Below, in pieces: positions 1 to 15,912 of a stretch of DNA of 64,000 nucleotides; positions within the stretch are counted from its first letter, which is position 1; each line of letters begins with the position of its first letter. The translations under genes and the position numbers were made by a program. Below the pieces are notes generated by a model. It had not been told where the DNA came from, made no database searches, and worked only from the letters and a program-made list of their open reading frames with translations. Source of the DNA: a virus; the IMG/VR virus record IMGVR_UViG_3300032287_003559, positions 96,001-160,000 of that record, one strand, 5' to 3'.

Positions 1-2
1 AA

Positions 3-764
3 TATGTATTTGATGCAGCTGCCCGTGTCGGTGGTATTCATGCTAACAATCAATATTCTGCAGAATTTGTTTATGAGAATATCCAAATCCAAACCAATCT
101 AATTCATTATGCTTGGAAATACGGAGTTAAAAAGTTTCTCTTTATTGGATCAGTTTGCATCTATCCTAAGTATGCTGAAGTTCCAGTAAAAGAAGAATCT
201 CTTATGACTGGTTATCTGGAACCAACAAATGATGCATATGCTGTTGCTAAAATTTCTGGTATCAAAATGCTTCAAGCATACCATAAACAATATGGATTTA
301 AAAGCGTATCTTTGATGCCTTCTAACATTTATGGTCCTGGTGATAATTTTCATCCAGAAAATGGACATGTTATTCCTTCAATGATTACCAAATTTAACAA
401 CTCCGATGGAAAGAAAGTTGTTTTTTGGGGAGATGGAACTCCTATGAGAGAATTTCTTTATTCTGATGACCTCGCAGATGCTTGCCTATTCGCGATGGAT
501 CACTTTGAAAACTCCGAATTGGTGAATGTTGGATCTGGATATAATGTCAGTATTAAAGAACTTGCACAAACAGTTGCTGGAGTTGTTGGATATAATGGAG
601 AAATTGGTTGGGACACTTCACGTCCAAATGGAACTCCAAATCGTCCATTAGATTATTCTAAGATGACTGAACTTGGTTGGAATCCAAAACATAGTTTGCG
701 TTCTGGTCTTGTAAAAACTTATAAATGGTTTAGTGAAGTAACCAATTATGATTCTTGCAAATAA
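3..764 (+). CDS. fcl: GDP-L-fucose synthase (5'-truncated by window edge)
   Basis: Frame is open from base 3: AAARVGGIHAN...GSVCIYPK...EPTNDAYAVAK (YxxxK)...NIYGPGDNF...WGDGTPMREFLY, typical of WcaG/Fcl. Confidence 0.93.
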   Translation, partial: YVFDAAARVGGIHANNQYSAEFVYENIQIQTNLIHYAWKYGVKKFLFIGSVCIYPKYAEVPVKEESLMTGYLEPTNDAYAVAKISGIKMLQAYHKQYGFKSVSLMPSNIYGPGDNFHPENGHVIPSMITKFNNSDGKKVVFWGDGTPMREFLYSDDLADACLFAMDHFENSELVNVGSGYNVSIKELAQTVAGVVGYNGEIGWDTSRPNGTPNRPLDYSKMTELGWNPKHSLRSGLVKTYKWFSEVTNYDSCK

Positions 765-1468
765 ATAACCCAAATAATTTTCATAACATGTATAATAGAC
801 TTTTAACCGAAGATGATGTTTCGGAATTTTTTGAAATAATAAAGAAGGAAAAGTATCCAGAAAAAGGATTTCAACATAAAGATTTGTGGAACATTCCTGG
901 TGGATTTGTTAAATGGATTTCAGTTTTAGAAGAGTTTAAGACTATTGGTAAAAATAATTTAAAAGTTATCGACCTAGGATCTTCTACAGGAGTTGTACCT
1001 CATATCATTGCAAGCTGGGGAAATGATGTAACTGGAATTGATATTGAATTGTCCGATCATTGGTGCCCTAAAAATTTAATTAGAATGGTTATCGGGGATG
1101 CTTTACTTGAAATGAAAGAAATTGAAGATGAAAGCATTGATGTGGTTACTGATCTATGTGCAGTTCATGAGTTTAATACAAGTGATAATGGTAAAGTTAA
1201 GAATGTTGGACTAAAAGAAGTCTCAGAACAAATTTACCGAATATTAAAACCAGGTGGAAAATTTCTTAGTTCAACTGATGTTTCTCTTGTTTATCCTGCA
1301 GCACAGCCTGGGGGATTTATTCCTCCAGAAGATATAATTAAAATCGTAGAATCTTCTGGGTTAAAACTAACTAGTCCATACAAAAAAGAATACGAGCAAT
1401 CTGAATATAATCCAATCTATCAACCCGCAGTTGGATTGCATATTGCTACTTTTTCTTTTGAAAAATAA
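755..1468 (+). CDS. class I SAM-dependent methyltransferase
   Basis: VIDLGSSTG motif I, VTGID, RILKPGG motif. Confidence 0.8.
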   Translation: MQINNPNNFHNMYNRLLTEDDVSEFFEIIKKEKYPEKGFQHKDLWNIPGGFVKWISVLEEFKTIGKNNLKVIDLGSSTGVVPHIIASWGNDVTGIDIELSDHWCPKNLIRMVIGDALLEMKEIEDESIDVVTDLCAVHEFNTSDNGKVKNVGLKEVSEQIYRILKPGGKFLSSTDVSLVYPAAQPGGFIPPEDIIKIVESSGLKLTSPYKKEYEQSEYNPIYQPAVGLHIATFSFEK

Positions 1469-1492
1469 GTTAAATTTAAAAATTATTAAAAC

Positions 1493-2428
1493 ATGTACAA
1501 AGGAAAAAAACTAATTGCTTGCTCTCCTGTAGGAAGAAAATCTTCCATGAAGTGCCTATTCAAGCATATTTTGAATAATCGACATATTCTAGATGAATTT
1601 CATTTATGGGTTAACACTGTAAATGAAGAAGATTTGGAATATATTAATAATTTTTCAAAACAATATCCAGACTTTGTTCATTTGAAATATGGATGTGATG
1701 AATTGGACCCAGAACAAATGGGCAAATCTCATAATGTAAAAAGATTTTATAATTACTGCGTAGAACCAGATACGTTTTATTTTAAAATAGATGACGATGT
1801 TATTTTTATTGAGGATGGAACTTTTGAAAAACTATCTCAATATAAATTAGATAATCCAAGCACTTTCCTTACATTTCCTACCATAATCAATAATCCATGG
1901 TGTACTCATTTTCTTAGAGTATCTGGAATCATTGATATTCAAGAATGTCCAGTATGCACTTATACATGGAACTCTGATTTTGAAAAATGCAAAGAATTGA
2001 TTAAATCATCTCCATCTGTAATGAGTGATAATCTATATGAACCTAAACTAGAAGATTTTATTCCTGAAGATAGAGTTATAAGTAGGTTATATTGTTTTGA
2101 TCCGCATATTGCATACAATCTTCTAAATGAGTTTCACAAAAAAATCGTAGAAAATAATCTGTCTGATTTAGATTTTGAAAATATTGTTTTGGAAAATTAC
2201 GAAACTGTATGCATAAATTTTGTAATGTGGGCTGGAGAAGATTTTGCAAAGTTTGATGGTGATGTTAAATCTGTTGGAGATGAACCTTGGTTAGCAACTT
2301 TCTATCCATGCAAATTTGATTTAAAAAATGCAATAGTTGGAAATACTAGAGTCGCTCACTATGCGTTTTGGCCACAAAGACCTCACTTAAATACTACTGA
2401 TATTTTAGAAAAGTATGAAACATTATGA
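1493..2428 (+). CDS. putative GT-A fold glycosyltransferase
   Basis: YFKIDDDVIF DxD-like motif; lies in the glycan island. Confidence 0.55.
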   Translation: MYKGKKLIACSPVGRKSSMKCLFKHILNNRHILDEFHLWVNTVNEEDLEYINNFSKQYPDFVHLKYGCDELDPEQMGKSHNVKRFYNYCVEPDTFYFKIDDDVIFIEDGTFEKLSQYKLDNPSTFLTFPTIINNPWCTHFLRVSGIIDIQECPVCTYTWNSDFEKCKELIKSSPSVMSDNLYEPKLEDFIPEDRVISRLYCFDPHIAYNLLNEFHKKIVENNLSDLDFENIVLENYETVCINFVMWAGEDFAKFDGDVKSVGDEPWLATFYPCKFDLKNAIVGNTRVAHYAFWPQRPHLNTTDILEKYETL

Positions 2429-3518
2429 TTATCTAATCATTGGATGTGGATTATTTGGAGCAACATTTGCAAGACTTGCTACTGATAATGGTAAGTCTTG
2501 CTTAATAATTGATAAAAGAAAACATATTGGTGGAAATTGTTATACTGAAAATGTAGAAGGTATTAATGTTCATACGTATGGAGCGCATATTTTTCATACA
2601 AGTAATAAAACTGTTTGGCAATTTGTGAATAGATTTTCTGAATTTAATAATTATATCAATTCACCAAAAGCTGTATCTAATAATGGGAAGTTATATTCTC
2701 TTCCCTTTAATATGAATACTTTTTATGAATTATGGGGAACTAGATCGCCTGATCATGCTAAATCGATTATCGAAAGTCAAAAATTTAAAGGTACTCCAAC
2801 TAATCTGGAAGAGCAGGCATTATCTTTAGTTGGAAAGGATGTTTATGAAACTTTAATTAAAGACTACACTGAGAAGCAATGGGGAAGACCTGCTAAGGAA
2901 CTTCCCACCTTTATTATTAAAAGACTTCCATTAAGATTTACTTTCGATAATAATTATTTCAATGATAAGTATCAAGGTATACCGATTGGCGGTTATACTA
3001 AGATGTTTGAAAAAATGATTGATGGTATTGAAGTTAAGTTGGAATCTGATTATTTTTCTGATAAAGATTATTTTGATTCATTAGCAAGCACTGTAGTTTA
3101 TACTGGTTGTATTGATGAATTCTTTGATTATGAGTATGGAGAACTTGAATATAGATCTTTAAAATTCGTTCAGGAAATCATGGATACTGACAATTATCAG
3201 GGAAATGCAGTTATTAATTACTGTGAAAAATATCCTAAACAAACTAGAACAATAGAACATAAACATTTTGAAAGATCTAACACCAATAAGACAGTAGTTA
3301 CCTTTGAGTATCCTGAAACATATTCAAAAGAAATGATTCCATATTATCCAGTCAACGATGAAACAAATCAAAAAGTTTACAAAAAATATCAAGAAAAATC
3401 AAAAATGTTGACTAATGTTATATTTGGCGGTAGACTAACCGAATATAAGTACATGGATATGCATGTTGTAATTGAATCTGCAATGAACAAATTTAAAACA
3501 CATAACGGAGTAGTATGA
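2415..3518 (+). CDS. glf: UDP-galactopyranose mutase
   Basis: GCGLFG FAD motif, HIGGNCY, YGAHIFHT, YTEKQWG, PYYPVND, GRLTEYKYMDM. Confidence 0.96.
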   Translation: MKHYDYLIIGCGLFGATFARLATDNGKSCLIIDKRKHIGGNCYTENVEGINVHTYGAHIFHTSNKTVWQFVNRFSEFNNYINSPKAVSNNGKLYSLPFNMNTFYELWGTRSPDHAKSIIESQKFKGTPTNLEEQALSLVGKDVYETLIKDYTEKQWGRPAKELPTFIIKRLPLRFTFDNNYFNDKYQGIPIGGYTKMFEKMIDGIEVKLESDYFSDKDYFDSLASTVVYTGCIDEFFDYEYGELEYRSLKFVQEIMDTDNYQGNAVINYCEKYPKQTRTIEHKHFERSNTNKTVVTFEYPETYSKEMIPYYPVNDETNQKVYKKYQEKSKMLTNVIFGGRLTEYKYMDMHVVIESAMNKFKTHNGVV

Positions 3519-4255
3519 GAATAGCTTTATGTTTATCTGGGCAACCAAGATTTGTCACTGAGTGTGCCCCATACATTTTACAAAATGTTTGTGATGGATA
3601 TGATGTTGATGTTTTTGCACATACTTGGTTTGATGAAGATCTTTTGAATAGACCATATAAAGTTGAAAATAATTGGCCATCGCAAAGAATATCTCCGGAC
3701 GCAGTTAAACAGATAGAGGAGATATATAAACCGATTTCACATAAAGTGGAATCTAGTATGAACTTTAAAGATCCAAATATTGATTATTCTATCTCTTGGC
3801 CAAGATATTGTGGATGGGGAGAACAAACTGAAGAATTTTATAGATTTGTGATTAGTAATCAAATTTCATATTTTTACAGTTTGAATCAGGTTAATATGCT
3901 AAAAAAACACTATGAGTATAAAAATGGATTTAAATATGATTGGGTAGTTAAGTGTAGAACGGATTCTATTGTACAAACCAAAATCGAATTTGAAAAATAT
4001 GATCCAAATGTAATTAACTATACTGGAATTAATAATCAACCAGATGGAATGATTTGTGATTGGTTTGATTTTGGTGGATCAAAAGTTATGGATGTATTCA
4101 TGAGTGCTTTTTCTGTATATGATTTTCCACTCAAAAAATGTATTGATGAGAACAATGGTGCATTTTGTCCAGAATTAATTCATCGAAAAATGATTGATTT
4201 TTTTGGTATAGATAAACAGGCACATCCAATCTACATTTCTTTACCTAGATTCTAA
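3515..4255 (+). CDS. putative glycosyltransferase (xIALCLSGQPR family)
   Basis: N-terminal IALCLSGQPR, DVFAHTW, YDWVVKCRTD; paralog of 9385..10107. Confidence 0.55.
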   Translation: MRIALCLSGQPRFVTECAPYILQNVCDGYDVDVFAHTWFDEDLLNRPYKVENNWPSQRISPDAVKQIEEIYKPISHKVESSMNFKDPNIDYSISWPRYCGWGEQTEEFYRFVISNQISYFYSLNQVNMLKKHYEYKNGFKYDWVVKCRTDSIVQTKIEFEKYDPNVINYTGINNQPDGMICDWFDFGGSKVMDVFMSAFSVYDFPLKKCIDENNGAFCPELIHRKMIDFFGIDKQAHPIYISLPRF

Positions 4256-4263
4256 TATTAAAT

Positions 4264-4977
4264 ATGAATATTCTTATACCAATGGCTGGTGAGGGAACAA
4301 GATTTCCTAGAGACACCTATAAAATCCCAAAGCCATTAATTGAAATAAATGGAGTTCCAATGATTCAAAGAGCAATAGAATCTTTGGGATTAACTGGAAC
4401 ATACCATTTTGTGATTAGAAAGGATAGTTATTATGATCAGGTATGTACGCTTTTACATTCAATCTTTCCGAATGTAAAAATTATCAGCGTAGAACAAACA
4501 ACAGAAGGTCCAGCATCAAGTTGTCTTTTGTTTAAAGATTTTATCAATAATGAAGAAGAGTTGGTCATTGCTAACTGTGATCAGATTATGTGGTGGGATG
4601 CAGATTTATTTCTTACCACTGCTAGGTATTATAAGTATGATGGTTTAGTAGTAACCTATAGTACAAATACCACAAAAAACAGTTACGCAAGAATTGATAA
4701 AAGTGGATTTGTGCAAGAAATTAAAGAAAAAGAAGTTATAAGTGATATTTCACTGAATGGAATTCATTATTGGAGAAAGGGTAAATACTTTGTGCAAAGC
4801 ACCGAAGATATGATACAATTTAATGATAGAGCACCTAATGGCGAATTTTATGTTGGACCTTCATATAATCATATGATTAAAAGAGGATTAAAAGTTGGAA
4901 TTCATCATATTCCTAACTGGCAGCATAATCCAGTAGGAGTTCCTGAAGATTTGGATTCATTTATGAAAAAACTATGA
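4264..4977 (+). CDS. sugar-phosphate nucleotidyltransferase
   Basis: ILIPMAGEGTRF...PKPLI, ANCDQ, EK, NGEFYV..YN motifs of the NTP_transferase family. Confidence 0.85.
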   Translation: MNILIPMAGEGTRFPRDTYKIPKPLIEINGVPMIQRAIESLGLTGTYHFVIRKDSYYDQVCTLLHSIFPNVKIISVEQTTEGPASSCLLFKDFINNEEELVIANCDQIMWWDADLFLTTARYYKYDGLVVTYSTNTTKNSYARIDKSGFVQEIKEKEVISDISLNGIHYWRKGKYFVQSTEDMIQFNDRAPNGEFYVGPSYNHMIKRGLKVGIHHIPNWQHNPVGVPEDLDSFMKKL

Positions 4978-5300
4978 ATATAACTAAAATTACAGATTAT
5001 GTGCGTGGATGGTTCATTGGTAACTTTGAACCATCAGTATTGAAAACTCCAGACTTTGAAGTGGGAGTATTGACTCACAAAAAAGATGAGTATTGGGCAC
5101 CCCATTATCATAAAGAAAGTGTAGAATATAATGTTCTTATTTCTGGAAAAATGATAGTTCAGGGAAAGGAGTTAAATAGTGGAGATGTATTTGTATTTGA
5201 GAAAGGGGAAATTGCTGACCCAGTTTTCCTTGAAGATTGTACATTAGTTGTAGTTAAATCCCCATCAATTCCTTCTGATAAATTTGAGGTTGAAAAATGA
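4974..5300 (+). CDS. small cupin-domain protein
   Basis: RGWFIGNFEPS...HYHKESVEYN (HxH-x4-E cupin motif)...GDVFVF. Confidence 0.75.
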   Translation: MNITKITDYVRGWFIGNFEPSVLKTPDFEVGVLTHKKDEYWAPHYHKESVEYNVLISGKMIVQGKELNSGDVFVFEKGEIADPVFLEDCTLVVVKSPSIPSDKFEVEK

Positions 5301-6535
5301 AATTTTTTAGAGAACTAACTGAATACGAAAAGGATCGTTGTGTTGTTGCAACGTATTACATTGAAACATATGAGGATCTTGGAACCCTAAGAGATGCTGC
5401 CTGGAACCTTGCAATCGGGCAGAGTGTGGGTAATCCAAAGGTTCGTAATCGCTGGGAAAGCGATGAGTTGTTTGAACTTGCATCTTGCGTCATTTATGCC
5501 GATGAAGACGAACTCTCCAAAGTTAATTCTGGAGTCGTTAAAATCGGTTTCCCTAAGGTCAATACTGATTGGGAAGGTGATGGTATCTCCCATCTTCTCT
5601 GCCAACTTATGGGTGGACAATTAGATATTGATGTCTTCAAAGTCTGCCGTCTTCAGAAACTGGAGTTTCCTGCCGATGTGGAAGCACAGTTCCTTGGACC
5701 CAAGAATGGTATTGACGGTATTCGTAAGTTTGTTAATCGTTACGACAAACCACTCTCTGGTGCTATTGTGAAGCCCAAGACTGGTATTTCACCACAGACT
5801 CTTGCAGAGATGGTGAAAGAACTTCTTGATGGTGGTGTAGATTTTATCAAAGAAGATGAGATTCTTTCTAATCCTTCATTCTGCCGTCTTGAAGATCGTG
5901 TAGAACTGATTTCTAATATCGTTAATAATTGTGGAAGGAATGTAATTTATACCTTCTGCATTAACGGTGATCATCATACCATTCTTGATCGTGCTAAATT
6001 TGTTGCTGATAACGGTGGAAACGGTATTCATATTAATTTTTGGAGTGGTCTTGGCGTCTATAATTCAGTTAGAAAGATGGATCTCCCACTCTTTATTCAT
6101 TACCAGAAGAGTGGTGACAAGATTCTTACGGATAAGAGACACGCATTCGGTATAGATTGGGATGTTCTTTGTGACCTTGCTGGTCTCTGTGGTGTAGATA
6201 CTATTCACGCAGGAATGTGGGGTGGTTATCTCAGCGATGATGAGAATGAACTTCGCAAAACTATGGAGACTCTTCACAAGCGTAATGTTCTCCCAGCATT
6301 AAGCTGTGGAATGCATCCAGGGATCGTTAACACCACTGCAGAGAAGTTTGGTACAGATTTCCTTGCTAACTGTGGCGGCGCCATTCACGGGCATCCTGGG
6401 GGCACTCTAGCGGGTGCTCTGGCGATGCGTCAGGCAATTGATAAGAATCCTGGTGCAGAGTTCCGTGCCGCAATTGATAAGTGGGGTTATGAAACTGGTG
6501 GCGGTTCTTTACCTGAGTGGGTATTAGATTTTTGA
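5297..6535 (+). CDS. RuBisCO-like protein (form IV RLP)
   Basis: GAIVKPKTG, GGVDFIKEDE, GVDTIHAG, PALSCGMHPG, GGAIHGHPGG..AGA.AMRQA; lacks carboxylation residues. Confidence 0.92.
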   Translation: MKFFRELTEYEKDRCVVATYYIETYEDLGTLRDAAWNLAIGQSVGNPKVRNRWESDELFELASCVIYADEDELSKVNSGVVKIGFPKVNTDWEGDGISHLLCQLMGGQLDIDVFKVCRLQKLEFPADVEAQFLGPKNGIDGIRKFVNRYDKPLSGAIVKPKTGISPQTLAEMVKELLDGGVDFIKEDEILSNPSFCRLEDRVELISNIVNNCGRNVIYTFCINGDHHTILDRAKFVADNGGNGIHINFWSGLGVYNSVRKMDLPLFIHYQKSGDKILTDKRHAFGIDWDVLCDLAGLCGVDTIHAGMWGGYLSDDENELRKTMETLHKRNVLPALSCGMHPGIVNTTAEKFGTDFLANCGGAIHGHPGGTLAGALAMRQAIDKNPGAEFRAAIDKWGYETGGGSLPEWVLDF

Positions 6536-6536
6536 T

Positions 6537-7016
6537 ATGAAAATTATATCTCATCGTGGGAACCTAACTGGACCAAATCCCCTTAAAGAAAATAGTCCTG
6601 ATTATATCGAAGAAGCGATTGCCGAAGGTTTTGATGTTGAGGTTGATCTAAGAGTCCAAGATGGTCAATGCTATCTTGGACATGATGATCCTCAATACTT
6701 TGTAACTATGGAATGGTTGAGAAAGTATAAAGATATTCTCTGGATTCATTGTAAAAATCTAGAAGCACTTGAAAAAATATCAAGTTCTGTGGTAGAATTT
6801 AACTACTTTTGGCATGATACAGATAGATATACTTTAACGAGTAAGGGGATTGGGTGGGTATTAGTAGGACAATATCCATATTCAAAATCCGTAGTTGTTC
6901 TGCCAGAAAAGATAGATTTATATACCTTTCCTCACGGGATTGAATATATAAAAAGCAGTTATGGAATCTGTACTGATATTCCATTTAAATATAAACAAAA
7001 AATAACGGAGAATTGA
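6537..7016 (+). CDS. short glycerophosphodiester phosphodiesterase (GDPD)-like protein
   Basis: ISHRGN, ENS, DVEVD, LGHD, WIHCKN, GICTD. Confidence 0.75.
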   Translation: MKIISHRGNLTGPNPLKENSPDYIEEAIAEGFDVEVDLRVQDGQCYLGHDDPQYFVTMEWLRKYKDILWIHCKNLEALEKISSSVVEFNYFWHDTDRYTLTSKGIGWVLVGQYPYSKSVVVLPEKIDLYTFPHGIEYIKSSYGICTDIPFKYKQKITEN

Positions 7017-7019
7017 CTA

Positions 7020-7661
7020 ATGAAATGGGAAACTGATCTGATTAAAGACATTAGAAGTAATACGCCATATGATGATACTGAGGCTGGTATAAATCATTTT
7101 CTTCATATTTGGCCTGGAATTGAGAATGATCCTGGTGTACTGAATCCATATGATGGAACTGAATGTAGTGAGTGTAATAAAGAAGCACTTCTTCAACAAT
7201 TCCTAAAAGTTCGTGATAACTGTAATGCGATTCTTGAAATTGGAATTGGTAGAAATGGAGAGAACTCCTTTGCTCACGTATTCTTTAAGAATAAAAAAGA
7301 AGAAACCAAATATATTGGTATTGATATAGAAGATCGTAGTTGGTTGGTAGATTATGGTGACAATATCTACACTATCCAAGGAAGTAGTTCCAATTATGAT
7401 GAGAATGTTGAGATTTTCAAAACCATGGGAGTAGAAAAATTTGACTTTATTTTCATTGATGGAGATCATAGCGTAAATCAAGTACTACGTGATTGGGAAT
7501 ACTCACGCCTCTTGAATGATGGTGGTATTGTTGGATTCCACGATACAAGTCATCACACTGGACCATATCTATTTGTAAGAAATCTGAACAGAGATATTTG
7601 GGATGTTATTGATAATTCTTGCCCACAAGATTACGGAATTGGATTTGCTACTAAAAAATAA
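7020..7661 (+). CDS. class I SAM-dependent methyltransferase (Methyltransf_24-like)
   Basis: ILEIGIG, IGID, DFIFIDGDHS, GGIVGFHD. Confidence 0.85.
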   Translation: MKWETDLIKDIRSNTPYDDTEAGINHFLHIWPGIENDPGVLNPYDGTECSECNKEALLQQFLKVRDNCNAILEIGIGRNGENSFAHVFFKNKKEETKYIGIDIEDRSWLVDYGDNIYTIQGSSSNYDENVEIFKTMGVEKFDFIFIDGDHSVNQVLRDWEYSRLLNDGGIVGFHDTSHHTGPYLFVRNLNRDIWDVIDNSCPQDYGIGFATKK

Positions 7662-7664
7662 ATT

Positions 7665-8666
7665 ATGAATGACCTTGAAGCACTAAAATCAAAATATAAG
7701 GTTGTTGTTTGGGGATTCAAACCAGTAAACGGAGTATTTCAAAATACTATCGGTTATGTCTGGAATAGTTTTTATAGAGCTTTTCAGACATTGGGGTTCG
7801 AAACCTACTGGTTCCCTAACCAAAAGGTAGAAGGATTTGACTTCTCTAATTGTATTTTCTTAGCAGAGGGATATGATGATTCAGAAATACCTCTAAACAA
7901 AACTTCAATTTATTATGTGCATTGTGCATACAATCCACAAAAGTATGTTAACAATGTTGGTAAATTTGTTGACTTGAGGTATAACCAACTAAAGATGAAT
8001 CATCCAAATTACATGTTTGAGTTGGATAAAAAAAATACCGAAAAATTGGGGAAAAGTTGTTATTATGAACCATCTACTAATCAAGTAGTTCATTTCAAAA
8101 ATGGTAAAGTAGATTATAATATCGATGATTTTGATAAAGTTTATGTTGCTTGGGCAACTAATTTGATGCCTGATGAAATGGATGAAAATGACATCTATTT
8201 GGAAAGAGAAGATAATGTTTACTTTCTTGGAACAGTTTATTATGATGCTCCATATTCAAACGTAAGTGAAATTAGTGAGTTTGCTCAAGAATGTCAAAAA
8301 AATAACATCGGATTCATTGTGAATGAATTTGAAAGAAATCAACTTTCCGAAGAGGATTATATCCAAATTTCAAAAAAATCTCTTTTTGGATTTGATATTA
8401 GAGGTAAATCTAATGTGGAAACTGGATATCTTCCTTGTCGGGTATTTAAAAATATAAGTTATGGTCTTCTAGGTACAACAAATTCTCCTGAAATTTATAA
8501 TGAGCTTGATGGTCACTGTGTCTATAACAGTTCCCCATCTAAACTTTTTTATAGTGCAATGAAAAGAAAAGACGATATTGAATTTATTAAAGAGTGTTTT
8601 AATTATGTAAAACATAATCACACATATATCAATCGAGTTAAGAGTATTTTAAGTATTTTAAAATGA
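7665..8666 (+). CDS. putative GT-B glycosyltransferase
   Basis: C-terminal GYLPCRVFKNISYG...HTYINRV resembles CgeB/Glyco_trans_1_2. Confidence 0.55.
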   Translation: MNDLEALKSKYKVVVWGFKPVNGVFQNTIGYVWNSFYRAFQTLGFETYWFPNQKVEGFDFSNCIFLAEGYDDSEIPLNKTSIYYVHCAYNPQKYVNNVGKFVDLRYNQLKMNHPNYMFELDKKNTEKLGKSCYYEPSTNQVVHFKNGKVDYNIDDFDKVYVAWATNLMPDEMDENDIYLEREDNVYFLGTVYYDAPYSNVSEISEFAQECQKNNIGFIVNEFERNQLSEEDYIQISKKSLFGFDIRGKSNVETGYLPCRVFKNISYGLLGTTNSPEIYNELDGHCVYNSSPSKLFYSAMKRKDDIEFIKECFNYVKHNHTYINRVKSILSILK

Positions 8667-9382
8667 AGTCATCAAATTTTTTAGTTCATCATCAAGCTCA
8701 TAAAAATAAAGTTGCAACAGAGCATGTTATTAGATCATTTAGAGAATATCACCCAGATGATCCATATGTAATTTGGTCTGATTGTGGTGAAGATTATATT
8801 GATATAGCAGAAAAATATAATACAGATTATTATTATTCCGACTTTAATGTAGGATATATCTATTATGATAAAGAATCTGCATATGAATTATATAATAGAA
8901 TAAGAAAATCATGCGAATTATATAAAGATAAAACGCATGTTCTTTGGATGGAAGACGATGTAATAATCAAAGGTGAAATTTATATTCCAGATGAAGTTGA
9001 GTATTATGGAATGCCAAATATTGGAAACACTTGGCCAGAACTTCATGAATATCTTTGTGAGAAATATAAAGTAAATCCCAACTTTAACTTTTGGTCAACT
9101 GCAGGTGGCGTGATCATGCCTACAGATACTTTTGTAAATAAATTTGATATTTTAGAAAAATTTATTGACGAAGATTATGATCATGTTTACAACAATATGT
9201 GCAAAAAAATTGGTGCTGGAGATATACTAAAAATGGTATCCCAAATAATCACTGGAAAAAATTATACCGTTAATCCGCAAATAACTGATGTTAATCATCC
9301 TACAGGTGTTAGCGATGATATAATTTCAATTGTTCATGGATTCAAGGGGCATTATGTAGAACTTCCTCCTAGAGATAATTGA
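8663..9382 (+). CDS. putative GT-A glycosyltransferase
   Basis: IWSDCG and LWMEDDV motifs; glycan island context. Confidence 0.5.
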   Translation: MKSSNFLVHHQAHKNKVATEHVIRSFREYHPDDPYVIWSDCGEDYIDIAEKYNTDYYYSDFNVGYIYYDKESAYELYNRIRKSCELYKDKTHVLWMEDDVIIKGEIYIPDEVEYYGMPNIGNTWPELHEYLCEKYKVNPNFNFWSTAGGVIMPTDTFVNKFDILEKFIDEDYDHVYNNMCKKIGAGDILKMVSQIITGKNYTVNPQITDVNHPTGVSDDIISIVHGFKGHYVELPPRDN

Positions 9383-9384
9383 TC

Positions 9385-10107
9385 ATGAAAGTAGCATTTT
9401 GTTTTGCTGGACAACCGAGAGATGTAAAAAATACTCTTAATAATATTAAAAAATCTTGGGGAACTCATCAGGAACTAGATTTCTTCTTTCATTCTTGGAT
9501 TCCTGATAGGGAAGGTCCATATAGAATAGACACTCCTTCTGATGTATATACGAAAGATATTAATGATTATATTTTATCTGAACTATCTCCAGTAAAATAT
9601 GAATTTGAAAATCAAATAATTTTTAAAAATTATTATAGAGACTCTATTCATTGGCCAATTCGTAGTTCTAATATTCCAAATCCTTCTCAAAATATCCAAT
9701 CATTTTTTTATTCAATTAAGAGAAGTAATGAACTAAAAAAACAGTATGAGGAAGAAAATAATTTTAAGTATGACTGCGTAATTCGTTGTAGATTTGACTA
9801 TTTGTTTACGAAGATCTATAATATTAGAGATTTTGATTTAAATTATTTGAATGTAAAAAATGATTGCAAGCATACTCCGTATGCAATCAACGATCACATT
9901 GCATTATCAAATAGTGAGAATATGGATTTGTATTCAACAGTATTTGATAATATTCAAGAACACTATAAAAACGGTATTGAATTTAATACAGAAGTTATTC
10001 TTGGATATAATGCTTTTATTAATGGATTAAAATATCACAAAACTTTAGGTGATAATAATGAATCCTATGTTTCAACACAAAAGGAAAGATCTGGAATTTA
10101 TATATGA
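9385..10107 (+). CDS. putative glycosyltransferase (paralog of 3515..4255)
   Basis: KVAFCFAGQPR, FFFHSW, YDCVIRCRFD, INDH. Confidence 0.55.
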   Translation: MKVAFCFAGQPRDVKNTLNNIKKSWGTHQELDFFFHSWIPDREGPYRIDTPSDVYTKDINDYILSELSPVKYEFENQIIFKNYYRDSIHWPIRSSNIPNPSQNIQSFFYSIKRSNELKKQYEEENNFKYDCVIRCRFDYLFTKIYNIRDFDLNYLNVKNDCKHTPYAINDHIALSNSENMDLYSTVFDNIQEHYKNGIEFNTEVILGYNAFINGLKYHKTLGDNNESYVSTQKERSGIYI

Positions 10108-11063
10108 ATATTGCATTTATAGGACCTGGTATTATGCCCATTCCCCCGAATGGATGGGGGGCAGTGGAAATGTTGATATGGGATTATGCAACAGTTCTAG
10201 GGAATTTGGGGCATACTGGTGTAATTATCAATACTCCAAATAGGTCTGAAATTATTCAAGAACTTAAAGAAGATGAATTTGATATTGTTCATCTTCATTA
10301 CGATGTTTTTCATGATATTATTCCTGAAATATTGGATACTATTAAAGGTAAATTGATTGTATCTAGTCATTATCCATATATCAATTATCCTGAGATGTGG
10401 GCGAATGATAATTATAGCCCTATAGTAAAAAGTTTTAGTAATAATAAAAATTTTAATATCTTTTCTTCTAGTCAAAAAGATATTAATACCTTTGTTAGTT
10501 ATGGTGCGGATCCTAATAACTGTTGGTTGAGTAGATTGGGTGTTCTTCCAGATTCGTATGCATTTGATGAAAATGCTACTTATGATAGAACACTTTCTTT
10601 TTCACAGATTTGTGATAGAAAGCGCCAATATCTTATCCAAGATTTTGATAATGTTGATTTTATTGGAAGACTGGAATATGGGAAGTTTAACAATAAGGCA
10701 AACTATAAGGGAGAAATGCCCAGAGTAAAATTAAATACGGAAATAACCAAGTATTCTAATTTTACTCTTTTAAGTTCCGTTGAAAATACAACTCCTTTGG
10801 TAGTTAAAGAAGCACTTATTTGTGGATTGGGTGTTGTAGTTTCTGAAGAAGTGTCTGTTGAACTAGACACAAGTTTAGATTTTATTGATGTTATTACAGA
10901 AGATAAGATCGAAGATCTTTCCTATGTTCAAAGTGTTCTGCAAAAAAATAAAGAATACTCTGTAAAAAACAGAAATAAAATTAGAGAGTATGGAATTCAA
11001 ACATTTGGTCTCTCAAATATTTTAGAATTTGAGTATGTTCCCAAAATGCAGTCATTGTTATGA
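10104..11063 (+). CDS. GT4-family glycosyltransferase
   Basis: IPPNGWGAVE, DIVHLHYD, E..PLVVKEALICG. Confidence 0.8.
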   Translation: MNIAFIGPGIMPIPPNGWGAVEMLIWDYATVLGNLGHTGVIINTPNRSEIIQELKEDEFDIVHLHYDVFHDIIPEILDTIKGKLIVSSHYPYINYPEMWANDNYSPIVKSFSNNKNFNIFSSSQKDINTFVSYGADPNNCWLSRLGVLPDSYAFDENATYDRTLSFSQICDRKRQYLIQDFDNVDFIGRLEYGKFNNKANYKGEMPRVKLNTEITKYSNFTLLSSVENTTPLVVKEALICGLGVVVSEEVSVELDTSLDFIDVITEDKIEDLSYVQSVLQKNKEYSVKNRNKIREYGIQTFGLSNILEFEYVPKMQSLL

Positions 11064-12013
11064 AAATAAGTATCATCGGTCCAGCTACACAAATTCCCCC
11101 TGTAGGATGGGGAGCAGTTGAAAGTTTAATTTGGGATTATAAGATATCTCTAGAAGAGATGGACCATAAAGTTCAAATTATAAACATTGAAAATCCTAAC
11201 GAAATTATTCAGCGGATTAATCAATTTAGACCAGATTTTGTTCATATCAATTATGATGATTGGATTGTTCTCTATCCATATATTCAATATCCTTGTGCAA
11301 TAACTTCTCACTTCGGATATATTGAAAGACCTGATATGATGGGAGGATACATAAACATTTTCAACTTATTCCAAAATTATAAACCAAATATTTTTTGCTT
11401 GTCCGAAAGCATTAAAAAAGTTTATAAAGTTTTTTCTGGTATCTCTGAAGATAAATTATTTGTTACTCCTAATGGCGTAAATCTTTCTATCTTTAAAAAA
11501 GAAAGAGAACCAAAGTATCCAGATAGAAGCATTTATCTTGCAAAAATAGATTATCGCAAACGCCAACACTTATTTCAATCTATTGAAAGTCTTTGGTATG
11601 CTGGTAATATTGCTGATAGTAGATTTGATATATCCAAAAATTATCTTGGAGAATGGAATAAAACACAACTCCATAATCAGTTGACCGATTATGGTAATCT
11701 GGTATTATTGAGTGATGGTGAAGCGCATTCATTAGTATTGATGGAAGCACTTGCATCTGGTCTTGGAATTGTAATTAGCGAATTTGCAACAGCAAATCTT
11801 GATCTTGATAAAAATTTTATCGATGTTATTCCAGAAAAAAGAATAAATGATCTTGAATATGTTGAAAGTATCATTGTAAAAAACAGGGAATATTCTATTA
11901 CTCATCGTGAAGAAATTATTGAATATTCTCAAAATTTTGGATGGTCAAATATAATAAAAAATTATTATCTACCTAGTGTTCAAAAATTAATTGCAAATTA
12001 TGATAGGATTTAA
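11060..12013 (+). CDS. GT4-family glycosyltransferase
   Basis: IPPVGWGAVE, TPNGV, EAHSLVLMEALASG (E-x7-E). Confidence 0.82.
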   Translation: MKISIIGPATQIPPVGWGAVESLIWDYKISLEEMDHKVQIINIENPNEIIQRINQFRPDFVHINYDDWIVLYPYIQYPCAITSHFGYIERPDMMGGYINIFNLFQNYKPNIFCLSESIKKVYKVFSGISEDKLFVTPNGVNLSIFKKEREPKYPDRSIYLAKIDYRKRQHLFQSIESLWYAGNIADSRFDISKNYLGEWNKTQLHNQLTDYGNLVLLSDGEAHSLVLMEALASGLGIVISEFATANLDLDKNFIDVIPEKRINDLEYVESIIVKNREYSITHREEIIEYSQNFGWSNIIKNYYLPSVQKLIANYDRI

Positions 12014-12794
12014 TGCTTTGGGGCAACTTGGTAGACTTGGAAATCAAATGTTCCAGTTTGCTTCGCTTAAGGGAATCGCAAGAAACCGTGGATATGAATA
12101 TTGCTTTCCTCCCACACAAAATAAAAATGAATGGACAGACCATCAATTGTTCAATCCTTTTAAACTTAGTAGAACTAGTCAACTAAATGTTCAGTTTATT
12201 GACGCAAATAGACCTACTATTGCGGAAAGTGGATTTTCATTTGATGAAAAGTTATTTAATGAATGTCCAGATTGGGTTTGTATTCAAGGATTTTTTCAGT
12301 CTGAAAAATATTTTAAACATATTGAAAATGAAATTAGATCTGATTTTGAATTCAAAGATGAAATTCTTAATCCTTGTAAAGAGATGATTTCTCAACTGGA
12401 TTCCTCCCCAATTGCACTTCACATCCGCAGAACAGATTATATTACCAATTCTAATCATACTGTATTGGATTTGGAATATTATCAAAAAGCATTAGATGAG
12501 TTCGATAAAGAAGTTACAGTTCTTGTGTTTTCTGATGATCCTGGTTGGTGTAATCAGCAAGATATTTTCTCATCAGATAGATTTCTTATTGCCGAAGGAA
12601 ATTCTAATTATGTTGATTTGTGTTTGATGTCTCTGTGTTCTGGTCACATTATTGCCAACTCTTCATTTTCTTGGTGGGGTGCTTGGCTAGCAAACAATAA
12701 TAAAGTTGTAGCACCTTCTGGATGGTTTTCTGGGTCTAATAATGAGCACCTAGATATTAAAGATTTGATTCCCGAAACTTGGATGGTGATTTAA
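12000..12794 (+). CDS. alpha-1,2-fucosyltransferase (GT11)
   Basis: GRLGNQMFQ, HIRRTDY, FSDD, IIANSSFSWWGAWL; ATG at 12000 preferred. Confidence 0.92.
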   Translation: MIGFNALGQLGRLGNQMFQFASLKGIARNRGYEYCFPPTQNKNEWTDHQLFNPFKLSRTSQLNVQFIDANRPTIAESGFSFDEKLFNECPDWVCIQGFFQSEKYFKHIENEIRSDFEFKDEILNPCKEMISQLDSSPIALHIRRTDYITNSNHTVLDLEYYQKALDEFDKEVTVLVFSDDPGWCNQQDIFSSDRFLIAEGNSNYVDLCLMSLCSGHIIANSSFSWWGAWLANNNKVVAPSGWFSGSNNEHLDIKDLIPETWMVI

Positions 12795-13510
12795 TGAAAA
12801 TTGCGATTTGTTTTATTGGTACTGGAAAGTATTTAAACTTTCTTCCAAAATATTATGAAAATATTCATGAATATTTTCTTCCCAATAGCGAAAAAACTTT
12901 TTTAGTTTTTACGGATGGTGAAGGAGATTTTCCTGAAGATGTTAAAGTATATAAACAAAAACATCTTGAATGGCCTTATATTACCTTAACAAGATTTGGA
13001 ATTATTCAAAAAGCAAAAGAAGAAATTGAAAAGAATGATTGGTTTGTTTTTATTGATGCAGACGCTTTGGTAGTCAATTCAATTACTGAAGAAGAGTTTT
13101 TTGATGATACTAAATCATTTTTTGGAGTCCATCATCCATGTCATTTTCTTCAGATGTCTCCGCATAATGAATATCCTGGAGCATTTGAAACAAATCCACA
13201 GTCTCTTTCTCATATCACTCAAACAGATGATTTGTCTACTTATTATCAAGGATGTTTATGGGGAGGAAAAGTTCCAGATGTTCTTAAGATGATTGAAGAA
13301 CTTGATTGTAGAGTAAACAAAGATCTTGAAAATGATGTGATTGCCGTATGGCATGATGAAAGTCATATCAATAAATTTTTTATTGAACAAAAGGAGTATG
13401 TGAATACTTTAGGTCCAGAGTATGCATACCCAGAAGTATTTTCTAGTTATTGCAAATTCGACCCAAAGATAGTACACTTAGCAAAAAATAACTCAAAATA
13501 TCATGTTTGA
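12794..13510 (+). CDS. GT6 (ABO/alpha-1,3-Gal(NAc)-transferase-like) glycosyltransferase
   Basis: IGTGKY, WPYITL.RF, FIDAD, HHP, YYQGCLWGG, AVWHDESHINK. Confidence 0.92.
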   Translation: MKIAICFIGTGKYLNFLPKYYENIHEYFLPNSEKTFLVFTDGEGDFPEDVKVYKQKHLEWPYITLTRFGIIQKAKEEIEKNDWFVFIDADALVVNSITEEEFFDDTKSFFGVHHPCHFLQMSPHNEYPGAFETNPQSLSHITQTDDLSTYYQGCLWGGKVPDVLKMIEELDCRVNKDLENDVIAVWHDESHINKFFIEQKEYVNTLGPEYAYPEVFSSYCKFDPKIVHLAKNNSKYHV

Positions 13511-14312
13511 ATTAAACGATAAAAATAAATCTACCTATAAACTCAAAGGTATTGGTCCGATCTATTATTTAAATCTTGATGGGCAACCAGAAAGAAGGAA
13601 ATATATGGAGGATCAATTTAAATATTGGGAGGTTGAAAATTATACTCGTATTTCTGCATATGATGGACGAGAAGATGATCTAAGTGATATCTTAGTTGGG
13701 CGGTATCCTGAAATGATGACCTCTGGAGAAATTGGATGTATTACTTCTCATCTAAAAGCAATTAAACATTGGTATGAAACATCCGATAGTCCATATGCAG
13801 TCATTATGGAAGATGATTGTAATTTGGATTTAGTCCGATATTGGAATTTTACCTGGGATGATTTTTATGCACATATCCCATATGATTGGGATATTGTACA
13901 AATTGCTATTATCTGTACTGGAGATCTTCATGTTAAACTTCATAAAAGATTTGTAAATGATTTCTCTACAGCTTGTTATCTGATTACTAGACATCATGCA
14001 GAAAAACTTATTAAGTTCCATACTAGAGGAGATAAGTATAAACTTGATAATGGAGTTAAACCACGTCCAGTTGCTGATGACTTGATTTATAATTCCGGAA
14101 ATACTTATTCAATTCCTCTTCTCCTCTATAGAACTGAACTTGGGTCTTCTATCCATCCAGAACACGTTGATGCATTTCATAAAGCTAATTTCAATGCACT
14201 ATCTCAATTCTGGGAACAAAACAGTTCTCAAATCGATATTAAAGATTATATGAACTATGATCCATATCTTGGTCGTATAGTTGAAAATTCTTCTGCCCAA
14301 CAAAATCCTTGA
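13503..14312 (+). CDS. GT25-family glycosyltransferase
   Basis: YYLNL...ERR, SAYDG, GEIGCITSH, IMEDD. Confidence 0.9.
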   Translation: MFELNDKNKSTYKLKGIGPIYYLNLDGQPERRKYMEDQFKYWEVENYTRISAYDGREDDLSDILVGRYPEMMTSGEIGCITSHLKAIKHWYETSDSPYAVIMEDDCNLDLVRYWNFTWDDFYAHIPYDWDIVQIAIICTGDLHVKLHKRFVNDFSTACYLITRHHAEKLIKFHTRGDKYKLDNGVKPRPVADDLIYNSGNTYSIPLLLYRTELGSSIHPEHVDAFHKANFNALSQFWEQNSSQIDIKDYMNYDPYLGRIVENSSAQQNP

Positions 14313-15909: not shown

Positions 15910-15912
15910 TAA

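What the first reader, a model, noticed from the sequence alone, without database searches (positions are those of the whole stretch)
4264..7016. Nucleotidyltransferase-cupin-RuBisCO-like protein-GDPD module: candidate undescribed sugar-donor pathway in a virus
Seen: four translationally coupled genes (two ATGA overlaps, one 1-nt gap) sit inside a glycosyltransferase island. Known: characterised form IV RLPs act in methionine salvage or in apiose/hamamelose-type sugar catabolism through enolisation of keto-sugar phosphates; none of those partner genes is here. Inference: the RLP (isomerase/epimerase-type step), cupin, phosphodiesterase-like enzyme and NTP-transferase build an unusual activated sugar, perhaps a ketose or branched sugar drawn from host pentose phosphates, for the neighbouring orphan GTs. 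A biosynthetic RLP in a phage would be a new role for the RuBisCO superfamily.
Basis: partly seen in the sequence, partly recalled or inferred. Interest (0 to 1): 0.92.

Follow-up and report, generated by a model that had tools for sequence, protein, structure and literature searches.

The report
Cyanophage RuBisCO-like sugar-activation gene cassette
A T4-like cyanophage carries a RuBisCO relative that cannot fix CO2 and is locked into a conserved cassette with a sugar-activating enzyme, a small isomerase-like cupin and a miniature phosphodiesterase; the same cassette sits in surface-sugar gene clusters of many phages, SAR11, Legionella and tiny archaea, so this RuBisCO branch probably has an untested sugar-building role.

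Summary
Four co-oriented genes lie at 4264-7016, with two ATGA overlaps and a one-base gap. They encode a sugar-phosphate nucleotidyltransferase (NT), a 108-aa cupin, a 412-aa RuBisCO-like protein (RLP) and a 159-aa miniature GDPD-type phosphodiesterase. The cassette sits in a glycosyltransferase/methyltransferase island of a psbA-carrying T4-like cyanophage.

The RLP keeps the enolisation core (K175, K177, K201, D203, E204) but has lost N123, H294 and K334. It scores far below every curated RuBisCO, MtnW and OiaX cut-off. In a tree it falls in a well-supported clade whose members are almost always next to the same NT. That clade includes 229 viral contigs, SAR11, DPANN archaea, Verrucomicrobia, Legionella and Francisellaceae. 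Natural RLP-NT and RLP-NT-cupin fusion proteins exist, and all four genes are under strong purifying selection.

My best reading (about 0.65) is an undescribed pathway that makes an activated sugar or sugar-phosphate donor for glycans, with the RLP as an enolising isomerase or epimerase. The substrate, product and acceptor remain inferred.

Phage RLPs were reported before without a function (Jaffe 2019). This scan had also flagged the same cassette on other DNA, in at least 24 genomes.

The parts
4264..4977 (+). Sugar-phosphate nucleotidyltransferase (NT), 237 aa
   Evidence: PF00483 at 37.2 bits, above the 21.2 cut-off. A family profile hits PDB 4EVW, an uncharacterised NDP-sugar pyrophosphorylase, at 2e-36. 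Next come mannose-1-P, GlcNAc-1-P, glucose-1-P and heptose-1-P transferases (1e-11 to 1e-7), well ahead of LicC (2e-4) and IspD (9e-6). It lies within 5 kb of the RLP in 33 of 38 lineages.
4974..5300 (+). Small monocupin, 108 aa, isomerase-like
   Evidence: Pfam cupin hits are below cut-off. The AF2 model has pLDDT 97. Best structural matches are the small Thermococcus phosphomannose isomerases 7zvy and 7zvm (Z 13.1 and 12.9, rmsd 2.0-2.1, 93-100 aligned residues), but many other cupins score within about 1 Z. Conserved residues include H44, H46 (nearly invariant), E51 and a C-terminal KxPS..DK.
5297..6535 (+). RuBisCO-like protein (RLP), 412 aa, non-carboxylating, NT-linked clade
   Evidence: PF00016 at E 8e-44. 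All NCBIfam equivalogs are far below cut-off. The clade signature across 37 sequences is: K175, K177, K201, D203, E204, S379 and G381 invariant; H294 to Q and K334 to Y in 37/37; D202 to E and G380 to C in 36/37. N123 is G in the window protein. The clade has SH-aLRT support of 99.
6537..7016 (+). Miniature GDPD-type phosphodiesterase, 159 aa
   Evidence: Motifs HRG, EN, ExD and GHD, plus an invariant HxK. AF2 pLDDT is 95.6. GDPD/PLD enzymes fill ranks 1-22 of the fold search. DPANN and some Verrucomicrobia loci instead carry a full-length PF03009 GDPD (E 4e-16).
7020..7661 (+). Methyltransf_24 (CmcI-like) methyltransferase, a frequent companion of the cassette
   Evidence: PF13578 at E 3e-8. 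In many related loci a homologue is inserted between the RLP and the mini-GDPD or flanks the cassette.
3515..4255 (+). DUF7796 protein, paralogue 1; candidate transferase of unknown fold
   Evidence: PF25072 at 32.2 bits. This family adjoins the cassette in 9 viral RLP lineages. No PDB or other Pfam relative was found. One atlas neighbour cluster is auto-named 'capsular polysaccharide biosynthesis protein'.
9379..10107 (+). DUF7796 protein, paralogue 2
   Evidence: PF25072 at 26.1 bits, just under the cut-off. It is 28% identical to paralogue 1.
2415..3518 (+). UDP-galactopyranose mutase (context: glycan island)
   Evidence: TIGR00031 at 415 bits, above the 303.75 cut-off.
11060..14312 (+). 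GT4-like, GT11, GT6 and GT25 glycosyltransferases (context: glycan island)
   Evidence: PF13439, PF01531, PF03414 and PF01755.

Best explanation
The four genes form a biosynthetic module that makes an activated, unusual sugar or sugar-phosphate unit for a glycan. The methyltransferase at 7020-7661 is probably part of the same module. The proposed mechanism is as follows. The RLP works as a Mg2+ and carbamate-dependent enolising enzyme, that is an isomerase, epimerase or tautomerase, on a mono-phosphorylated keto-sugar. The cupin performs a metal-dependent aldose-ketose type isomerisation. The NT couples the resulting sugar phosphate to an NTP to give the donor. The mini-GDPD makes or trims a phosphodiester or cyclic-phosphate intermediate. 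What is shown: the gene anatomy, the family and fold of each protein, the loss of carboxylase residues with the enolisation core retained, conservation of the cassette across viruses, bacteria and archaea in glycan loci, natural fusions, and purifying selection. What is inferred: that the product is a glycan donor, the chemistry of each step and the order of steps, and the acceptor (host surface, virion or other).
For: Anatomy and coupling.

RLP active site: K175, K177, K201, D203 and E204 are kept; N123, H294 and K334 are lost. The signature Q294/Y334/E202/C380 is near-invariant in 37 clade members.

Not a characterised family: rubisco_III 203.5 bits against a cut-off of 497; MtnW 168 against 409 and 128 against 514; OiaX 155 against 700. 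In the tree, a clade with SH-aLRT 99 holds all the NT-linked RLPs tested and excludes the form I, form II, MtnW and OiaX references. It also excludes L125, the one RLP-bearing locus placed outside the clade, which has no NT beside it.

Co-occurrence: 229 viral contigs carry RLP relatives. Among 38 RLP lineages, the NT is present in 33, the mini-GDPD in 18 with a full-length GDPD in 8 more, and the cupin in 17. Gene order is shuffled between lineages.

Cellular loci: SAR11, Woese-, Pace- and Micrarchaeota, Verrucomicrobia, Elusimicrobia, Azospirillum, Turneriella, Balneola, Sphingobacteriales, Legionella (3 species), Tatlockia and Francisellaceae. Neighbours include GT9, GT2, SDR, DegT, methyltransferases, KdsB-like and LicD proteins.

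Fusions: P0393 (813 aa) and P0394 (817 aa) are RLP-NT-cupin; P0244 (667 aa) is RLP-NT.

Selection: dN/dS is 0.04-0.29 for all four genes against seven viral orthologues.

Other points: the NT profile is closest to sugar-1-P nucleotidyltransferases. The cupin is closest to small phosphomannose isomerases. The NT-plus-cupin pairing parallels bifunctional PMI-GMP enzymes such as AlgA and ManC; that parallel rests on my own knowledge of the family. The island context is established.
Against: There is no biochemical evidence for any member. The substrate and product are unknown.

No phosphomutase or anomeric kinase that would supply a sugar-1-phosphate is conserved with the cassette.

The role of a phosphodiesterase in making a nucleotide-sugar is unclear.

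In Legionella the pair sits beside LicD, a phospho-alcohol transferase family, which fits a CDP-type phospho-donor rather than a glycosyl donor.

The cupin match is generic, because many cupins score within 1 Z.

Each fusion protein rests on a single metagenomic contig. One apparent mini-GDPD-RLP fusion (P0284) lies on a contig where the RLP is split, so it may be a frameshift artefact.

dS is near saturation, so the dN/dS values are approximate.
Confidence: 0.65

Rival explanations
1. The module makes a CDP-type phospho-donor, such as a CDP-ketose, CDP-polyol or CDP-phosphoalcohol in the manner of CDP-ribitol, CDP-xylulose or CDP-choline. The phospho-unit would then be transferred as a phosphodiester decoration by LicD-like or unknown transferases (DUF7796 in phages). 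The GDPD-like enzyme would handle the corresponding phosphodiester.
For: LicD (PF04991, E 1e-42) is divergently adjacent to RLP+NT in L. nautarum, and a homologous block is kept in four Legionellaceae loci. GDPD enzymes act on glycerophosphodiester-type bonds, and a GDPD or mini-GDPD accompanies the RLP in 26 of 38 lineages. No mutase or anomeric kinase is conserved with the cassette. Ketose-5-P and fructose-6-P cytidylyltransferases are known in capsule pathways (my own knowledge of S. pneumoniae AbpA and C. jejuni HS:5).
Against: The NT profile matches sugar-1-P nucleotidyltransferases over its full length, far better than LicC, IspD or inositol-1-P cytidylyltransferase. No LicD was found in the phage record (a low-sensitivity search). 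LicD adjacency was seen only in the Legionellaceae.
Confidence: 0.2
2. The module is catabolic or a salvage route. One version is a methionine-salvage or 5-deoxyribose-like route (RLP enolase, cupin dioxygenase, phosphoesterase). Another is breakdown of host NDP-sugars or nucleotides to feed phage metabolism, with the NT running in reverse.
For: All characterised RLPs are catabolic or salvage enzymes (Tabita 2007 and Carter 2018, as cited in PMC6389311). The set RLP + cupin + phosphoesterase formally mirrors MtnW + MtnD + MtnX. RuBisCO-family enzymes normally follow an aldose-1-P to ketose-1-P isomerase.
Against: MtnW and OiaX scores are far below cut-off and the RLP branches separately. No IF-2B/MtnA, class II aldolase/MtnB, ARD or four-carbon acid-sugar kinase was detected in the phage record (low sensitivity). 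The cellular context is consistently glycan biosynthesis. Methyltransferases are embedded in the cassette. In the fold searches the phosphomannose isomerases lead and no acireductone dioxygenase appears among the listed matches, but many cupins tie within about 1 Z, so this does not exclude one.
Confidence: 0.08
3. The chemistry is as in the best explanation, but the phage uses the donor on its own virion proteins or DNA rather than on the host cell surface.
For: The module sits in a phage next to structural genes (tail fibre and baseplate genes at 21-50 kb). T4-like phages are known to glycosylate DNA (my own knowledge). The phage-specific DUF7796 paralogues have no cellular counterpart in the loci examined.
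Against: The same cassette lies in cellular LPS- or capsule-like loci. The island holds GT11, GT6, GT25 and Glf, which are typical of oligosaccharide synthesis. No DNA-modification genes were seen beside it.
Confidence: 0.1
4. The protein is a genuine, divergent CO2-fixing RuBisCO that supports host carbon fixation, as psbA supports photosynthesis.
For: It is a cyanophage with psbA. The best NCBIfam hit by score is type III RuBisCO.
Against: N123, H294 and K334, which are essential for carboxylation, are replaced; H294 and K334 are replaced invariantly across the clade. The rubisco_III score is 203 bits against a cut-off of 497. The clade also occurs in heterotrophs such as SAR11, Legionella and DPANN archaea.
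Confidence: 0.01

Closest known systems
'Form IV-like' RuBisCO-related proteins of phages and Beckwithbacteria (Jaffe, Castelle, Dupont and Banfield 2019, PMC6389311)
   Same: These are RLPs on IMG/VR phage contigs, some from myoviruses. They are divergent from other RLPs and lack key catalytic residues, and their function was left open. The RLP here is on an IMG/VR myovirus-type record with 229 viral relatives.
   Different: That paper's sequences were not on hand, so identity of the clades is likely but unverified. The text I read makes no link to a nucleotidyltransferase, cupin or GDPD cassette, or to glycan loci.
MtnW / YkrW 2,3-diketo-5-methylthiopentyl-1-phosphate enolase (form IV RLP, methionine salvage)
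   Same: It shares the fold and the K201-carbamate/Mg2+ enolisation core (K175, K201, D203, E204) acting on a 1-phospho-ketose. Both are non-carboxylating.
   Different: Scores are 168 and 128 bits against cut-offs of 409 and 514, and it forms a separate clade. The active sites differ: MtnW has V at 177, P at 295, L at 327 and S at 334, whereas this clade has K, K/R, H and Y. MtnA, MtnB, MtnX and MtnD partners were not detected.
OiaX and the RLPs linked to four-carbon acid-sugar kinases (apiose and acid-sugar catabolism)
   Same: These are RLPs acting on phosphorylated keto-sugar acids, and they show that the fold serves sugar chemistry outside CO2 fixation.
   Different: The OiaX score is 155 bits against a cut-off of 700. 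They form a separate clade containing the named references. They are always next to four-carbon acid-sugar kinases, which are absent here. They are catabolic, not biosynthetic.
Bifunctional type II phosphomannose isomerase / GDP-mannose pyrophosphorylase (AlgA, ManC, XanB)
   Same: It combines an NTP_transferase domain and a cupin isomerase in one pathway, and in one chain. Here NT and cupin are translationally coupled, and they are fused in that order in P0393 and P0394. The cupin's best structural matches are small phosphomannose isomerases.
   Different: There is no PF01050 hit, and similarity to the GMP enzymes is only remote (E about 1e-9). The extra RLP and GDPD partners have no counterpart in the GDP-mannose pathway.
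Glycerophosphodiester phosphodiesterases (GDPD, PF03009: GlpQ, UgpQ)
   Same: The catalytic His/Arg/Glu/Asp/His motifs and the barrel core are shared. Full-length PF03009 members replace the mini form in DPANN loci.
   Different: It is only 159 aa against about 240, and it gets no Pfam hit even at E 10. The ExK metal motif reads HxK. The substrate is unknown.

Membership tests
RuBisCO large-subunit superfamily (PF00016 / PF02788) | Significant match to the catalytic TIM-barrel domain and the N-terminal domain | tested here: met
   PF00016 at E 8.4e-44 and 150 bits, above the 30.1 cut-off. PF02788 is weak (17.7 bits, below 20.7). PDB RuBisCO and RLP chains match at E 1e-40.
Bona fide RuBisCO (forms I-III) | Carboxylation residues N123, H294 and K334 together with K175, K201, D203 and E204 | tested here: not met
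   N123 is G, H294 is Q and K334 is Y. The Q and Y replacements are invariant in 37 clade members.
Bona fide RuBisCO (forms I-III) | Score above the curated NCBIfam cut-offs | tested here: not met
   rubisco_III 203.5 against 497.45; PRK04208 195.8 against 438; PRK13475 107 against 489.
MtnW DK-MTP-1-P enolase | Equivalog score, and clade membership with the named MtnW | tested here: not met
   168.2 against 409 and 128.2 against 513.6. The B. velezensis MtnW reference lies in a different starred clade.
MtnW DK-MTP-1-P enolase | Methionine-salvage partners (MtnA, MtnB, MtnX, MtnD) in the genome or neighbourhood | tested here: inconclusive
   No IF-2B, Aldolase_II or ARD match in the 175-kb record. 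However, the same search type missed the divergent NT for PF00483, and the record is about 82% complete. None was seen in the 120 related loci.
OiaX 3-oxo-isoapionate-4-phosphate decarboxylase and acid-sugar RLPs | Equivalog score, clade membership, and an adjacent four-carbon acid-sugar kinase | tested here: not met
   155.1 against 700. It branches apart from the A. tumefaciens OiaX and four kinase-linked RLP references. No DUF1537 kinase was found.
Phage 'form IV-like' RLP clade of Jaffe et al. 2019 | Groups with that paper's phage and Beckwithbacteria sequences in a tree | not testable with these tools
The description (IMG/VR, Myoviridae, divergent, residues missing) fits.
Sugar-phosphate nucleotidyltransferase (PF00483) | Pfam gathering score and the N-terminal G-x-G-x-R signature | tested here: met
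   37.2 bits against 21.2. The MAGEGTRF motif is present, and G9, G11 and R13 are conserved in the family alignment.
GDPD (PF03009) | Pfam HMM match | tested here: not met
   No hit even at E 10 for the window protein or three homologues.
GDPD (PF03009) | Catalytic motifs (HR, EN, ExD, HD) and the GDPD barrel fold | tested here: met
   The motifs are invariant in 40 homologues. GDPD/PLD chains fill ranks 1-22 (Z 8.7-11.6, 142-152 of 159 residues aligned, rmsd 3.2-4.2).
Cupin superfamily | Double-stranded beta-helix fold with the HxH...E motif | tested here: met
   The AF2 model has pLDDT 97. There are 227 PDB matches at E <= 1e-3, with a best Z of 13.1. H44, H46 and E51 are conserved. Pfam scores are below the gathering cut-offs.
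Type II PMI-GMP (AlgA/ManC) | MannoseP_isomer (PF01050) domain fused to a GMP-type NT | tested here: not met
   PF01050 is not among the hits. Only the architecture is analogous.

The most novel reading that the evidence does not exclude
This RLP clade is the core of a previously unknown, mutase-free route to a nucleotide-activated rare sugar. A 1-phospho-ketose would be epimerised or isomerised by the RLP through its enediolate. The cupin would convert it to an aldose-1-phosphate, which is the reverse of the MtnA / ribose-1,5-bisphosphate-isomerase type step that always precedes RuBisCO-family enzymes. The NT would capture that product, with the mini-GDPD supplying or editing a cyclic or diester phosphate. 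This would be the first anabolic role of the RuBisCO fold outside CO2 fixation. Phages would spread it among SAR11, cyanobacterial, Legionella and DPANN surface-glycan loci.
Probability: 0.15. Interest if true: 0.92.

Novelty: new variant of a known kind. Interest (0 to 1): 0.8.

Why it matters
Every RuBisCO-like protein with a known function works in salvage or catabolism. A clade that is hard-wired, and sometimes fused, to a nucleotidyltransferase in glycan loci would give the RuBisCO fold a biosynthetic role and would define a new sugar-donor pathway. The clade is abundant in the ocean and in fresh water: 229 viral contigs, SAR11, and hundreds of metagenomic clusters. It also occurs in culturable Legionella and Azospirillum, so the hypothesis can be tested directly by enzymology and by glycan analysis of knock-outs. 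For phage biology, it adds to the evidence that cyanophages carry large glycan-remodelling islands whose products and targets are unknown.

Tried and rejected
- tblastn of the RLP against 50,697 cultured or deposited phage records gave no match, so no isolated phage in that set carries it.
- Literature searches for RLP with cytidylyltransferase, polysaccharide biosynthesis, IV-GOS or Pelagibacter, and for recent RLP papers, found no functional study of this clade.
- Complex prediction on RLP + NT + cupin, with the cupin as partner, gave no answer (score 0.00). It is not used as evidence either way.
- The DUF7796 family had no PDB sequence relative with a 30-member profile and no other Pfam family. 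Its role as a transferase is a guess.
- The promoter and terminator scan of 1-15000 gave counts equal to shuffled sequence and was uninformative.
- Pfam on the recurrent neighbour families f17, f97, f61, f60, f40, f90 and f88 found nothing.
- P0284, a mini-GDPD-RLP fusion, was discounted because its contig L134 has the RLP split into two ORFs.
- P0283 and P0289 (IF-2B-RuBisCO) and P0316 (TIR-RuBisCO) are fusions of other RuBisCO clades, not of this one.
- The reading of the NT as a LicC-type enzyme was considered and ranked lower after the PDB profile search.
- The genome search on the phage's own record missed the NT for PF00483, so its negative results are weak.


Full report
**What is there.** The window is bases 96001-160000 of a 175-kb IMG/VR virus record. 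It is a T4-like myovirus. Its baseplate hub/tail lysozyme is 46-48% identical to those of Synechococcus phages S-SM2 and Bellamy. It carries psbA, a PstS phosphate-binding protein and an OprB/SLH porin. I therefore read it as a cyanomyovirus. Four + strand ORFs occupy 4264-4977, 4974-5300, 5297-6535 and 6537-7016. The two ATGA overlaps and the one-base gap were read directly. Around them lie an SDR epimerase, two methyltransferases, UDP-galactopyranose mutase, two DUF7796 paralogues, and GT4-like, GT11, GT6 and GT25 glycosyltransferases. The 'glycosyltransferase island' is real.

**The four proteins.**
- Gene 1 is an NTP_transferase (PF00483, 37.2 bits). A profile of 24 family members matches PDB 4EVW, an uncharacterised NDP-sugar pyrophosphorylase, at 2e-36. 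It then matches mannose-1-P, GlcNAc-1-P, glucose-1-P and heptose-1-P nucleotidyltransferases. These are well ahead of LicC, IspD and inositol-1-P cytidylyltransferases.
- Gene 2 is a 108-aa monocupin. Its AF2 model has pLDDT 97. The best structural matches are the ~110-aa Thermococcus phosphomannose isomerases (Z 13.1 and 12.9), although many other cupins score within about 1 Z.
- Gene 3 is a RuBisCO-like protein (PF00016, E 8e-44).
- Gene 4 has no Pfam or NCBIfam hit. It does carry the GDPD catalytic motifs (HRG, EN, ExD, GHD). Its AF2 model has pLDDT 95.6. In an unbiased search of 48,161 PDB chains, GDPD/PLD enzymes fill ranks 1-22 (Z 8.7-11.6) before a drop to 7.3. In DPANN and one Verrucomicrobia locus, a full-length PF03009 GDPD stands in the same neighbourhood instead.

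**The RLP is not a carboxylase and not a known RLP.** Alignment to form III structures and to named references shows that K175, K177, K201, D203, E204, H327, S379, G381 and G403 are kept. In contrast, N123 is G, H294 is Q, R295 is K, H298 is D and K334 is Y. Across 37 members of its clade, Q294 and Y334 are invariant, and E202 and C380 are present in 36 of 37. This is a fixed, remodelled active site, not decay. The retained residues are those that RuBisCO and MtnW use for Mg2+/carbamate-assisted enolisation of a 1-phospho-2-ketose. The lost residues are needed for CO2 addition, hydration and cleavage. This assignment of roles follows established RuBisCO mechanism and is my own knowledge. Every curated NCBIfam model scores far below its cut-off: type III 203 against 497, MtnW 168 against 409, OiaX 155 against 700.

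I built a maximum-likelihood tree of 137 sequences. It included 1.84-billion-protein library representatives and named references taken from plasmid records: form I from C. necator, form II from C. sphaeroides, MtnW from B. velezensis, OiaX from A. tumefaciens, and four RLPs linked to acid-sugar kinases. The window RLP falls in a 39-40-member clade with SH-aLRT support of 99, apart from all references. I had no named IV-Photo, IV-DeepYkr or form III reference, so the clade's exact position in the superfamily is not settled.

**The cassette is conserved well beyond this phage.**
- 229 viral contigs encode relatives with 57-97% identity.
- A scan of one genome per prokaryotic species found 40 loci. 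They are in Pelagibacteraceae, Woese-, Pace- and Micrarchaeota, Verrucomicrobia, Elusimicrobia, Azospirillum oleiclasticum, Turneriella, Balneola, Sphingobacteriales, Legionella nautarum, L. maceachernii and L. drozanskii, Tatlockia and Francisellaceae.
- I clustered 1,780 neighbouring ORFs. Of 38 RLP lineages defined at 75% identity, the NT lies within 5 kb in 33, the mini-GDPD in 18 (a full-length GDPD in 8 more), the cupin in 17, an SDR in 13 and DUF7796 in 9.
- Gene order differs between lineages: NT-cupin-RLP-GDPD, GDPD-NT-RLP, RLP-NT-cupin and RLP-cupin-NT. Methyltransferases are often inserted. Shuffled order argues for selection on clustering rather than inherited synteny.
- The one RLP-bearing locus outside the clade (a Desulfobacterales locus) has no NT.
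- Natural fusion proteins exist. P0393 (813 aa) and P0394 (817 aa) are RLP-NT-cupin, and P0244 (667 aa) is RLP-NT. Each is known from a single contig.
- All four window genes show dN/dS of 0.04-0.29 against seven viral orthologues. dS is near saturation, so the values are approximate.

**Context in cells.**
- In a complete Pelagibacter genome the trio GDPD-like/NT/RLP sits between a 2-hydroxyacid dehydrogenase and a KdsB-like cytidylyltransferase. Nearby are a heptosyltransferase, a HAD-NT fusion and a GmhA-like SIS protein, which makes an LPS-core-like locus.
- In L. nautarum, RLP+NT is divergently adjacent to LicD, and a homologous block is kept in four Legionellaceae loci.
- Other loci add GT2, DegT aminotransferase, C- and O-methyltransferases and FkbM.
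- None of the recurrent neighbours is a sugar kinase or a phosphomutase.
- The phage record gave no match to IF-2B/MtnA, class II aldolase/MtnB, ARD, four-carbon acid-sugar kinase or PGM/PMM. That search type also missed the divergent NT, so these negatives are weak.

**How it most likely works.**
- Shown: a non-carboxylating RLP with an intact enolisation core is genetically, and sometimes physically, coupled to a nucleotidyltransferase, a small cupin and a GDPD-type phosphodiesterase in glycan loci.
- Inferred, at about 0.65: the module makes an activated, unusual sugar unit. The RLP isomerises or epimerises a mono-phosphorylated keto-sugar through an enediolate. The replacement of H298 by Asp and R295 by Lys at the distal phosphate site argues against a bisphosphate substrate. 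The cupin carries out an aldose-ketose step; its pairing with the NT mirrors bifunctional PMI-GMP enzymes. The NT forms the NDP-linked donor. The mini-GDPD processes a diester or cyclic phosphate. A Methyltransf_24 enzyme often methylates somewhere along the route.
- Main rival, at about 0.2: a CDP-type phospho-donor transferred as a phosphodiester. LicD in Legionella, the GDPD chemistry and the lack of a mutase favour it. The NT's sugar-1-P-like profile argues against it.
- Other readings: salvage or catabolic roles (about 0.08) and true CO2 fixation (about 0.01) fit poorly.
- Open question: whether the phage uses the product on the host envelope, its virion or its DNA.

**Comparison with what is known, and novelty.** Jaffe et al. 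2019 reported about 80 RLP-related sequences on IMG/VR phage contigs (some Myoviridae) and on Beckwithbacteria, with function 'unclear'. This RLP very probably belongs to that group. The parts of that paper I read, and the other papers I searched, do not link it to a nucleotidyltransferase cassette or to glycan synthesis. Earlier notes of this scan had already flagged the same cassette on other DNA, with 36 notes in at least 24 genomes. My results agree with them. They add the clade-wide Q294/Y334/E202/C380 signature, the triple-fusion proteins, the replacement of the mini-GDPD by full-length GDPD in DPANN loci, the purifying-selection estimates and the psbA-based host assignment. I class the finding as a new variant of a known kind: a new functional class of RLP in an undescribed pathway. 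Interest is 0.8.

Noticed in passing
P0316 (library representative, 583 aa): A TIR domain (PF13676, E 3e-13) is fused N-terminally to a full RuBisCO-like protein from a different clade. It could link a RuBisCO-fold enzyme to NAD-derived signalling or defence.
   Followed up: no
P0283 (726 aa) and P0289 (742 aa): These are IF-2B-family (ribose-1,5-bisphosphate / MTR-1-P isomerase) domains fused to a RuBisCO large subunit. They are single-chain versions of two consecutive steps of the archaeal AMP pathway.
   Followed up: no
L135:7001-9175 (P0395, 724 aa): An RLP of this clade (51% identity) carries an unexplained C-terminal extension of about 330 aa. It lies on a 59-kb contig with ankyrin-repeat and AAA genes and almost no Pfam hits, possibly a giant virus.
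   Followed up: partly
window 14437-18269: This block has raised G+C (0.42-0.44 against about 0.30-0.35 in the flanking island). It encodes an OprB-type porin with an SLH domain, S-adenosylhomocysteine hydrolase and a PstS phosphate-binding protein. These are host-like auxiliary genes directly after the glycan island, and AdoHcy hydrolase would relieve product inhibition of the island's many methyltransferases.
   Followed up: partly
window 24165-25190: A psbA (Photo_RC, E 2e-87) gene marks the phage as a cyanophage.
   Followed up: yes
L117, L118, L121 (Legionella) about 3.5-7.8 kb: A block conserved across Legionellaceae lies next to RLP+NT. It comprises LicD plus four proteins with no Pfam family (about 148, 337, 113 and 325 aa). 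These are candidates for the missing steps or the transferase of the pathway in culturable hosts.
   Followed up: partly
L093, L095, L104, L108 and similar loci: Many DPANN and SAR11 loci hold two NT paralogues, one next to the RLP and one next to the GDPD or mini-GDPD. This hints at two nucleotide-activation steps.
   Followed up: no
L134:1195-2774: In this metagenomic contig the mini-GDPD reads through into the RLP N-terminal domain, and the RLP barrel is a separate ORF. It is either a frameshifted assembly or a rearranged gene.
   Followed up: partly
window 57368-57444 and 58239-58310: The phage encodes tRNA-Leu(TAA) and tRNA-Thr(TGT).
   Followed up: no
whole record (tool behaviour): the genome search on the phage's own record found no PF00483 match, although hmmscan scores the NT at 37 bits. 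Its negative results for divergent phage genes should therefore be read cautiously.
   Followed up: yes
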